A DNA stretch of 64,000 bases from Escherichia coli (GTDB taxonomy: Bacteria > Pseudomonadota > Gammaproteobacteria > Enterobacterales > Enterobacteriaceae), in assembly GCF_045037415.1 (NCBI RefSeq), contig NZ_CP173440.1, one strand, 5' to 3'. Of this stretch, positions 60,463 through 61,404 are shown one piece after another (the stretch's first letter is position 1; each line of letters starts with the position of its first letter). A program made the position numbers and the translations under genes. The notes beneath the pieces are model-generated. The model worked only from the letters and a program-made list of their open reading frames with translations, was not told the DNA's origin and ran no database searches.

Positions 60463-61404
60463 GTATTCCCCCCGTGTGCGGGGGTTATCGGCAACCTCAA
60501 TTCCTAATGGCTGTCTAAGGAAAGTATTCCCCCCGTGTGCGGGGGTTATCGGCAGGGTTTGCCCTTTTGCACCGCGCAGCGGTCGTATTCCCCCCGAGTG
60601 CGGGGGTTATCGGAGCAACGTTTCCGGATTATATGGCTGGAACGTGTATTCCCCCCGTGTGCGGGGGTTATCGGTGGTGCTCTCAACCGTCACCCGCTGG
60701 CTGGAAGTATTCCCCCCGTGTGCGGGGGTTATCGGTGGTGTTGTCCACGGTCACCCGCTGGCTGGAAGTATTCCCCCCGCATGCGGGGGTTATCGGGCAC
60801 CCTCACGGATACCTTTTGCACAGTGTTAGTATTCCCCCCGCATGCGGGGGTTATCGCCTTAGAGAAGCAAAAACCCCACCGAGGCAGGGGTATTCCCCCC
60901 GTGTGCGGGGGTTATCGGTTACTTTTTGGCAGTTGGTAAAACACTTTTGCGTATTCCCCCCGCATGCGGGGGTTATCGGCGAAAACGGCAACCTTCATAA
61001 AAACGTCTTTTGTATTCCCCCCGTGTGCGGGGGTTATCGGCCGAGATTGAGTAAAGCAAAGTAACGGCGGTGGTATTCCCCCCGCATGCGGGGGTTATCG
61101 GCAGCGTCTGAACGGACGAAACATCCCTGTTGAGTATTCCCCCGTCTGCGGGGGTTATCGGCGAGCGCTCTCCTGGTAAATCGGTAGCTCGGAGTATTCC
61201 CCCCGCATGCGGGGGTTATCGGGCTGGATTTCCGTCAGTTGGTCAGCTGCTGCTGTATTCCCCCCGTGAGCGGGGGTTATCGGTTCCGGACTCCTGTTTC
61301 CGGCAGTGGATTAAAGTATTCCCCCCGCATGCGGGGGTTAACGGCACTACCAGATCCGAATGGACACCCGTAATGAGTATTCCCCCCGCACGCGGGGGTA
61401 TCGA
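60463..61404 (+). CRISPR. CRISPR array: 16 repeats of 29 bp (GTATTCCCCCCGTGTGCGGGGGTTATCGG) and 15 spacers of 32 bp
   Basis: Strict 61-bp period from 60463. Repeat 12 is 28 bp. Repeat 16 is degenerate (GTATTCCCCCCGCACGCGGGGGTATCGA). Confidence 0.97.

What the first reader, a model, noticed from the sequence alone, without database searches (positions are those of the whole stretch)
60919..60950. Spacer 8 begins with the right half of the plasmid palindrome; an AAG PAM would rebuild the full motif
Spacer 8 is TTACTTTTTGGCAGTTGGTAAAACACTTTTGC. Its first 7 nt, TTACTTT, are the right arm of AAAGTTACTTT.

If the protospacer carried a 5'-AAG PAM, the PAM plus spacer reads AAGTTACTTTTT, which is a copy of the operator. 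AAG is the PAM type used by type I-E adaptation and, as I recall, by IV-A3.

A spacer starting with this 7-mer by chance has odds of order 15*2/4^7, about 0.002. The implication is that this spacer was taken from a plasmid using the same operator, meaning a relative of this plasmid's own backbone. No identical self-target is visible in the window. The closest is 12045-12054, TTACTTTTTG, which then diverges.
Basis: inference. Interest (0 to 1): 0.5.

Follow-up and report, generated by a model that had tools for sequence, protein, structure and literature searches.

The report
Plasmid CRISPR spacer targets prophage operator

Summary
Spacer 8 (60919-60950) is TTACTTTTTGGCAGTTGGTAAAACACTTTTGC and starts with the right arm of AAAGTTACTTT. 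That palindrome has 25 exact copies in the window, against about 2 matches expected by chance even when one mismatch is allowed.

The predicted AAAG flank is confirmed. All 160 PLSDB hits are copies of the array itself. INPHARED phages and E. coli genomes hold no protospacer. One metagenome contig and six IMG/VR viral contigs carry it with 0-2 PAM-distal mismatches. In every case it reads ...ctaagaAAAG|TTACTTTTTGG, so the PAM is AAG and the full 11-mer is rebuilt. Two further copies of the palindrome lie 48 bp to either side.

The target is a conserved non-coding module in the nin region of Klebsiella lambdoid prophages. The gene order is cII, O/P-like, module, NinB, RusA, Q. It is not a plasmid and not a relative of this backbone. 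No self-target exists.

Spacers 10 and 12 hit the same phage family, in NinB and in the late leader, also with AAG. Spacer 14 hits traL of IncF-type plasmids.

The most likely function is crRNA-guided transcriptional silencing of the phage early-right operon, inferred from published IV-A3 work. Why the phage module and the plasmid share one palindrome, and which protein binds it, remain unknown. This is a new member of a known kind, of moderate interest.

The parts
60919..60950 (+). Spacer 8, TTACTTTTTGGCAGTTGGTAAAACACTTTTGC. It matches a prophage nin-region operator module with a 5'-AAG PAM.
   Evidence: for the sequence. for protospacers in L002 and L004-L009.
60890..60918 (+). Repeat upstream of spacer 8, GTATTCCCCCCGTGTGCGGGGGTTATCGG. 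In I-E-type acquisition the last G is copied from the G of the AAG PAM.
   Evidence: (Benz et al. 2023) reports that the 3' G of the acquisition motif is incorporated into the array.
60463..61404 (+). Type IV-A3 CRISPR array with 16 repeats (the terminal one degenerate) and 15 spacers of 32 nt.
60398..60462 (+). 65-bp leader between csf2 and the first repeat. New spacers enter at this end.
   Evidence: (Newire 2020) describes a conserved 65-bp leader. One search reports integration at the leader-repeat junction.
55423..60397 (+). Type IV-A cas operon: 263-aa ORF, Cas6e-like, DinG/Csf4 helicase (56753-58660), 235-aa ORF, Csf2/Cas7 (59366-60397). No cas1 or cas2.
   Evidence: for the ORFs. for annotation of the near-identical pKPN-bbef. 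for DinG and Csf2 as best NCBIfam hits, both below the curated cut-offs.
61041..61072 (+). Spacer 10. It matches the NinB/Orf gene of the same phage family, about 1 kb downstream of the spacer-8 site, with PAM AAG.
61162..61193 (+). Spacer 12. It matches the untranslated stretch between Q and the presumed lysis genes of Klebsiella lambdoid phages, with PAM AAG.
61284..61315 (+). Spacer 14. It matches traL of IncF-type Klebsiella plasmids, the classic plasmid-versus-plasmid spacer.
   Evidence: (Newire 2020) names traL and traN as targets.
12041..12054 (+). Closest self site. The palindrome plus TTT gives AAG plus a 10-nt prefix match to spacer 8 and then diverges. It is one of 26 AAG-plus-seed sites in the window.
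31127..31885 (.). Cluster of six palindrome copies in the intergenic region upstream of the 413-aa gene 29775-31016(-). It is an example of the plasmid's dispersed AAAAGTWACTTTT sites.
61475..61485 (.). Palindrome copy 71 nt downstream of the terminal repeat of the array.

Best explanation
Spacer 8 is an anti-phage spacer. It was most likely captured with an AAG PAM from a Klebsiella lambdoid temperate phage. The locus has no cas1 or cas2, so capture was presumably by a host type I-E Cas1-Cas2 acting in trans. The protospacer lies in a conserved non-coding module of the phage nin region. The module follows a terminator, sits about 2.3 kb upstream of the Q antiterminator gene, and is in the same orientation as the early-right operon. 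It contains three copies, 48 bp apart, of the same palindrome (AAAGTWACTTT) that is spread over the plasmid. The left arm of the palindrome contains AAG, so each copy creates a PAM on each strand, and a spacer taken there must begin TTACTTT or TAACTTT. That explains the observation. The crRNA would guide the Csf complex to this site, pairing with the template strand of rightward transcription. With DinG it would then block transcription into NinB, RusA and Q, or block a local promoter, and so cripple late gene expression. Spacers 10 and 12 act on the same phage family. What is shown: the match, the PAM, the rebuilt motif, the phage context, and the absence of plasmid or self targets. What is inferred: the acquisition route and the silencing mechanism (both from published IV-A3 work), and any benefit of hitting the operator cluster.
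For: All 160 plasmid hits include the repeat flanks, so they are arrays. The phage collection and the E. coli genomes hold no protospacer. The exact non-array match in the metagenome contig L002 reads ctaagaAAAG|TTACTTTTTGG. Six IMG/VR contigs carry the same module with 0-2 mismatches at spacer positions 31-32 and the same flank. The three palindromes are at L002 6237, 6285 and 6333, against 0.15 expected. The phage identity rests on CII-like, DnaD/O-like, DnaC-like and ParB-like genes upstream, NinB, RusA and Q-like genes downstream, and 83-96% nucleotide identity to Klebsiella phage ST974-OXA48phi18.2. The module is conserved across different flanks. Spacers 10 and 12 match the same phages with AAG. 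Published work reports a 5'-NAAG interference motif, Cas1/2e acquisition in trans with the G incorporated, DinG-dependent block of elongation, DinG-independent block at promoters, and interference with lambda-vir.
Against: No experiment here shows binding or silencing. The consensus scan found no sigma-70 promoter in the module, so promoter occlusion is unproven. Benz et al. saw weaker protection when an intergenic lambda site was targeted. Only 7 of 15 module-bearing contigs keep an intact protospacer. The module is absent from all 50,697 INPHARED genomes, so the targeted phages may be uncommon. An unsampled plasmid carrying the same module cannot be excluded as the original donor.
Confidence: 0.75

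Rival explanations
1. One reading: the spacer came from a plasmid that uses the same operator, a relative of this plasmid's own backbone, so this is plasmid-versus-plasmid conflict.
For: The target does carry the operator. IV-A3 arrays mainly target plasmids, and spacer 14 here hits traL. Lambdoid prophage segments can sit on large plasmids, as in hit H151.
Against: None of 72,556 PLSDB plasmids holds a non-array copy. All 7 protospacer contigs are lambdoid phage contexts. Apart from three small genes, the module and the window share only the 14-17-nt palindrome core.
Confidence: 0.08
2. The start in the palindrome has no functional meaning. It follows only from the palindrome containing AAG, and the spacer was kept simply because it hits a phage.
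For: Each palindrome supplies two AAG PAMs. In the 7.7-15 kb phage stretches held here, 1.2-2.6% of AAG sites start in the motif. Spacers 10 and 12 hit ordinary, non-palindrome sites of the same phages.
Against: Scaled to a whole phage of about 45-50 kb, only about 6 of roughly 1,500 AAG sites lie in the module. This is my extrapolation. A random pick there is therefore about 0.4% per spacer. The spacer is retained in 160 plasmids. Spacers 8 and 12 both hit non-coding control regions.
Confidence: 0.45
3. Self-regulation: crRNA-8 acts on the plasmid's own operators through the PAM plus a partial seed match, tuning the plasmid regulon.
For: 26 sites in the window have AAG plus at least 7 nt of seed identity, and 5 have 9-10 nt.
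Against: The best total identity is 18/32. Published escape mutants show that the PAM and seed are required, but nothing suggests that 7-10 nt gives stable binding. A perfect phage target exists.
Confidence: 0.03
4. Pure coincidence: the 7-mer at the start of spacer 8 is unrelated to the palindrome.
For: The 7-mer is short and AT-rich, and the pattern was picked out after the fact.
Against: The real protospacer is preceded by AAAG in every copy and is flanked by two more palindromes at 48-bp spacing.
Confidence: 0.01

Closest known systems
Type IV-A3 CRISPR-Cas of Klebsiella IncHI1B/IncFIB plasmids (Newire et al. 2020, PMC7434947; Benz et al. 2023, 10.1101/2023.06.23.546257)
   Same: It has the same repeat, 65-bp leader, cas gene set with DinG, 32-nt spacers and AAG PAM. 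Its spacers target traL and phages, and the replicon type is IncFIB/IncHI1B with MOBH.
   Different: The system itself does not differ. The new point is the assignment of this conserved spacer. My searches of PLSDB and INPHARED found no target for it. It goes to a prophage nin-region module seen only in IMG/VR and one metagenome.
Type I-E spacer acquisition (AAG PAM, with the G becoming the last repeat base)
   Same: All three phage protospacers are preceded by AAG, and the array base before each of those spacers is G. The repeat before spacer 7 ends in C, as expected if that base comes from the donor DNA.
   Different: There is no cas1 or cas2 in the locus. Acquisition in trans is inferred from the literature and was not tested here.
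IV-A3 interference with phage lambda-vir by transcriptional repression (Benz et al. 2023)
   Same: A lambdoid phage is targeted with a PAM-dependent match in the early region upstream of late functions.
   Different: Here the spacer is natural and conserved, and it lies in a non-coding operator cluster. The only intergenic site tested in the paper gave weaker protection.
KorB OB operator network of IncP-1 plasmids, 13-bp palindromes dispersed over the backbone (from my own knowledge; an analogy only)
   Same: A 13-nt palindrome (AAAAGTWACTTTT) is dispersed about 25 times. The copies are mostly intergenic and lie at varying distances upstream of promoters.
   Different: The sequence is different and no cognate ParB/KorB-like protein was identified. 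The same palindrome also occurs in phages.

Membership tests
Type IV-A3 CRISPR-Cas array spacer | A 29-nt stem-loop repeat (GTATTCCCCCCGYRTGCGGGGGTTATCGG) and 32-nt spacers next to csf genes and dinG, on an IncHI1B/IncFIB plasmid | tested here: met
   DinG and Csf2 are the best NCBIfam hits but fall below the curated cut-offs. The near-identical plasmid CP026172 is named as IV-A3 in PMC7434947.
Type IV-A3 CRISPR-Cas array spacer | The protospacer is preceded by 5'-AAG on the non-target strand | tested here: met
   Spacer 8 in 7 contigs, and spacers 10 and 12.
Type IV-A3 CRISPR-Cas array spacer | No adaptation module (cas1/cas2) in the locus | tested here: met
   The annotation of the homologous locus and the ORF list show only csf genes, cas6 and dinG between 54.9 and 60.4 kb. 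UmuDC follows the array in pKPN-bbef.
Type IV-A3 CRISPR-Cas array spacer | Interference by DinG-dependent transcriptional repression | not testable with these tools
   Literature only.
Lambdoid temperate phage (the target) | Early-right operon order: cro/cII, replication O/P-like, nin genes (NinB, RusA), Q antiterminator, then late leader and lysis genes | tested here: met
   PHROG hits, the annotation of MK448237, and the Q-to-leader-to-presumed-lysis layout in L027.
   All 160 PLSDB hits are arrays. Only three small ORFs are shared between L002 and the window.
Transcription-factor operator (the label given to AAAGTWACTTT) | An over-represented palindrome placed between genes near promoters | tested here: met
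   25 exact sites, against about 2 matches expected even with one mismatch allowed. In the 27-52 kb stretch, 15 of the 16 sites fall outside annotated CDS, and five lie 102-111 nt upstream of start codons. A TTGATG-N16-TATCCT element lies 22-26 nt downstream at three sites.
Transcription-factor operator (the label given to AAAGTWACTTT) | A cognate DNA-binding protein is identified | tested here: inconclusive
   Pfam found no DNA-binding domain in 10 neighbouring ORFs. The Rep3 iterons are a different 26-mer. No paper mentions the motif.

The most novel reading that the evidence does not exclude
The palindrome is the operator of a regulator shared between the IncHI1B/IncFIB plasmid and a mobile regulatory module of Klebsiella lambdoid prophages. 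The regulator could be encoded by the plasmid or by the host. The module would then be wired to the plasmid's regulon, or the reverse. The plasmid's CRISPR would have been selected to sit on exactly this cross-talk node. The 21-nt deletion and 1-nt insertion variants would be phage escape alleles.
Probability: 0.12. Interest if true: 0.65.

Novelty: new member of a known kind. Interest (0 to 1): 0.4.

Why it matters
It gives a target to a spacer that is conserved in at least 160 clinical Klebsiella and Enterobacteriaceae megaplasmids and has no match in the PLSDB plasmid or INPHARED phage collections. It shows that at least three spacers of this array (8, 10, 12) converge on the early-right and late-control region of one Klebsiella prophage family. 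That fits a system that works by silencing transcription rather than cutting DNA. It also flags an undescribed 13-nt palindrome that is shared by the plasmid backbone, a prophage module and unrelated viral contigs. The protein that binds it is unknown, and finding it could reveal regulatory links between plasmids and phages.

Tried and rejected
1. BLAST of the spacer alone against PLSDB gave 160 perfect hits. Repeating the search with 10 nt of repeat on each side showed that all of them are arrays.
2. INPHARED phages gave only chance hits at 85% identity in Lactococcus, Bacillus and microvirus genomes. E. coli complete genomes gave only array copies.
3. An exact non-array pattern in 185,579 representative genomes found nothing. 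The relaxed 20-mer found one Bacteroidaceae MAG contig that diverges on both sides, so it is a chance match.
4. Full-text searches for the spacer and for the palindrome found nothing relevant.
5. Rfam on the phage module gave only sub-threshold hits (isrF, E = 0.05). The promoter scan found no sigma-70 consensus.
6. The search for a regulator failed. Pfam on 10 ORFs next to palindromes found no DNA-binding domain. The ORF families shared between phages and window are small proteins of unknown function, and homologues of them are also present in a phage stretch that holds no palindrome copies.
7. The idea that the palindrome is the Rep3 iteron was rejected. The iterons are a separate 26-mer at 51772-52051.
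8. Homology between the phage module and the plasmid beyond the palindrome was rejected.
9. The viral contig L025, which is dense in the palindrome, has no relative in INPHARED.

Full report
What is at the coordinates. Window 60463-61404 is a CRISPR array of 16 repeats (GTATTCCCCCCGYRTGCGGGGGTTATCGG, the last one degenerate) and 15 spacers of 32 nt. A 65-bp leader and a cas operon lie directly upstream. The largest gene of the operon is a DinG-family helicase and the last is Csf2/Cas7. The near-identical plasmid pKPN-bbef is typed IncFIB/IncHI1B, MOBH, and its copy of the locus is annotated with Cas6e, a helicase and Csf2. This is the type IV-A3 system described by Newire et al. 2020 and Benz et al. 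2023.

The palindrome. AAAGTWACTTT has 25 exact sites in the window. With one mismatch allowed and both strands counted there are 62 matches, against 1.85 expected, and none of 100 shuffles reaches that number. The extended form is a 13-nt palindrome, AAAAGTWACTTTT. In the annotated 27-52 kb stretch, 15 of the 16 sites fall outside annotated CDS. Five of them lie 102-111 nt upstream of the start codons of minus-strand genes. Three are followed 22-26 nt later by a promoter-like TTGATG/TTGCAG-N16-TATCCT/TAACCT element. The palindrome is not the iteron of the Rep3-family initiator at 52234-53385, which has its own 26-nt repeats. Calling it an operator is therefore reasonable, but no binding protein was found and no paper mentions the sequence.

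Testing the prediction. BLAST of the spacer against 72,556 plasmids gave 160 perfect hits in Enterobacteriaceae. Adding 10 nt of repeat on each side showed that all 160 cover the flanks, so they are copies of the array. Every matching record has exactly one place, so none of these plasmids carries a second, self-targeted copy. The phage collection gave only chance hits and the E. coli genomes gave only arrays. I then scanned for the exact spacer preceded by a non-array base at position -2. The representative genomes gave nothing. The metagenome collection gave one contig, L002 (ERZ1673695 NODE-800, 41 kb). It reads ...cctgttgccctaagaAAAG|TTACTTTTTGGCAGTTGGTAAAACACTTTTGC|cggcg. The flank is AAAG, the PAM is AAG, and the 11-mer AAAGTTACTTT is rebuilt. 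Two more copies of the palindrome lie 48 bp upstream and 48 bp downstream, making 3 in 7.7 kb against 0.15 expected. A 20-mer scan of IMG/VR found six more contigs of 16-51 kb with the same module. One is exact, four have one mismatch at spacer position 31, and one has mismatches at positions 31 and 32. All have the same AAAG flank. A relaxed scan of the genomes found only a chance 20-mer in a Bacteroidaceae MAG.

What the target is. Upstream of the module, L002 encodes a CII-like activator, a DnaD/O-like initiator, a DnaC-like loader and a ParB-like protein. In L009 the genes downstream of the module are NinB/Orf, an HNH-like protein, RusA and a Q-like antiterminator. They are all on the same strand, and Q starts about 2.3 kb after the protospacer. 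L002 is 95.9% identical over 91% of its length to Klebsiella phage ST974-OXA48phi18.2. That phage has DinI and a hypothetical gene at the place where L002 has the module. The other contigs share 83-96% identity with this phage over mosaic parts. The target is therefore a Klebsiella lambdoid temperate phage, not a plasmid. The module follows a bidirectional terminator. It consists of the three palindromes followed by about 600 nt of conserved, T/G-rich, ORF-poor sequence that ends at the start codon of a small gene of unknown function. It stays nearly invariant even where the flanks differ. It shares only the 14-17-nt palindrome core with the window. Elsewhere, three small phage nin-region ORFs have homologues in the window at up to 79% amino-acid identity.

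The rest of the array. Spacer 10 matches the NinB gene of the same phages, exactly in L002, L007, L009, L024 and phage MK448237, with flank cAAAG. Spacer 12 matches an untranslated stretch after Q, about 125 nt before the next ORF on that strand (10109-10567, presumed to begin the lysis genes), with flank AAAG. Spacer 14 matches traL of IncF-type plasmids and accounts for most of the rows sampled from 3,365 matching records, as already published. At least three of the 15 spacers therefore aim at the early-right and late-control region of one prophage family.

How it most likely works. The AAG flank, and the G that precedes every spacer in the array, fit acquisition by a type I-E Cas1-Cas2 acting in trans. 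Benz et al. demonstrated this route for IV-A3, including incorporation of the G. The palindrome's left arm ends in AAG on both strands, so any spacer taken at a palindrome must begin TTACTTT or TAACTTT. This is the direct cause of the observation. The protospacer is on the coding strand of rightward transcription, so the crRNA pairs with the template strand. According to Benz et al., the complex alone blocks initiation at promoters, DinG is needed to block elongation, and IV-A3 can reduce lambda-vir titres by up to five orders of magnitude, though less at the one intergenic site tested. I infer that crRNA-8 blocks transcription into NinB, RusA and Q, or blocks a module promoter. No consensus promoter was detected, so which of the two applies is open.

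Was the operator chosen? In the 14.5-15 kb phage stretches held here, about 1.3% of AAG sites start in a palindrome. Extrapolated to a whole phage of about 45-50 kb, that is roughly 6 of 1,500 sites, or 0.4%. A random pick is therefore unlikely but not impossible, and the pattern was noticed after the fact. Selection for a regulatory choke-point, or an acquisition hotspot at a protein-bound repeat cluster, are both plausible and untested. Of the 15 lambdoid contigs with the module, 7 keep the protospacer, 4 have a 1-nt T insertion at spacer position 10, and 4 have a 21-nt deletion that removes positions 15-32. Two of the deletion variants also carry a T-to-A change at position 2. All keep the AAG. 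These could be escape alleles or ordinary polymorphism.

Self-targeting. The window has 26 sites with AAG plus at least 7 nt of seed identity to spacer 8, which are its own palindromes. None exceeds 18/32 overall. A regulatory effect on the plasmid itself is unlikely.

Comparison and verdict. Everything about the CRISPR side is as already described for IV-A3: the repeat, leader, PAM, mix of plasmid and phage targets, and replicon type. The new findings are the target of this conserved spacer, the convergence of spacers 8, 10 and 12 on one prophage family, and the sharing of one undescribed palindrome between the plasmid backbone and the phage module. The same palindrome, extended as CTAAAGTWACTTTAG, also occurs between genes 29 times in 14.5 kb of the unrelated viral contig L025 and 18 times in 14 kb of L044. 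Its inference of a related plasmid as the source is not. I rate this a new member of a known kind, with interest 0.4.

Noticed in passing
window 61041-61072 and 61162-61193: Spacers 10 and 12 also target Klebsiella lambdoid phages with an AAG PAM. Spacer 10 lies inside NinB/Orf. Spacer 12 lies in the untranslated stretch between Q and the presumed lysis genes, and matches about 22 INPHARED Klebsiella phages.
   Followed up: partly
window 60858-60889 and the repeat ending at 60857: The repeat before spacer 7 ends in C instead of G, as expected if the last repeat base is copied from the donor's PAM. Spacer 7 has a 94% match in Escherichia phage SaltyDalty.
   Followed up: no
window 60675-60706 and 60736-60767: Spacers 4 and 5 are 28/32 identical, so they look like two alleles of one target kept side by side. 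Spacer 5 has a 97% match in a 4.7-kb Klebsiella aerogenes plasmid.
   Followed up: no
window 61475-61485 and 57074-57084: One palindrome copy lies 71 nt after the terminal repeat of the array, and another lies inside the dinG coding region.
   Followed up: no
window 31127-31885 and 51306-52161: There are two clusters of the palindrome, with six and four copies. The second flanks the Rep3-family rep gene (52234-53385, minus strand), whose own 26-nt iterons lie at 51772-52051.
   Followed up: partly
window 31070-31100, 45180-45210 and 38610-38640 (minus strand): A promoter-like element, GGGG-TTGATG-N16-TATCCTGG, lies 22-26 nt downstream of the palindrome. This would put the palindrome centre near -63 to -67, which suits an activator site as well as a repressor site.
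   Followed up: partly
L025 (IMGVR_UViG_3300050498_000031) and L044 (IMGVR_UViG_3300035686_000005): These unrelated viral contigs (GC 41% and 38%) carry the same palindrome as CTAAAGTWACTTTAG, 29 times in 14.5 kb and 18 times in 14 kb, apparently between genes. L025 has no relative in INPHARED.
   Followed up: partly
L002 6344-6824 and the homologous stretches of L004-L009: About 480-600 nt of highly conserved, T/G-rich sequence without convincing ORFs follows the three palindromes. L006 has an expanded TTGTTGTGTTTG repeat there. There is a weak sub-threshold Rfam hit to isrF (E = 0.05).
   Followed up: partly
L017, L019, L027, L034 and L024, L040, L043, L045: These are module variants. The first four have a 21-nt deletion removing spacer positions 15-32. 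The last four have a 1-nt T insertion at position 10. All keep the AAG. They could be CRISPR escape alleles.
   Followed up: partly
L015 4848-4960: Three perfect 48-bp tandem units each contain the palindrome. This is the same 48-bp period as in the Klebsiella phage module, but the surrounding sequence is different.
   Followed up: no
window 41252-41494(-), 43116-43388(-), 39820-40113(-): These small hypothetical plasmid genes have homologues in the phage nin region, at 79%, 42-79% and 29% amino-acid identity. This points to gene exchange between the plasmid's long leftward operon and lambdoid phages.
   Followed up: partly
window 40287-40610(-): PLSDB's RGI layer labels this 107-aa hypothetical ORF as AAC(3)-Ib/AAC(6')-Ib3. 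It is far too short for that bifunctional enzyme, so the label looks like an annotation artefact.
   Followed up: no
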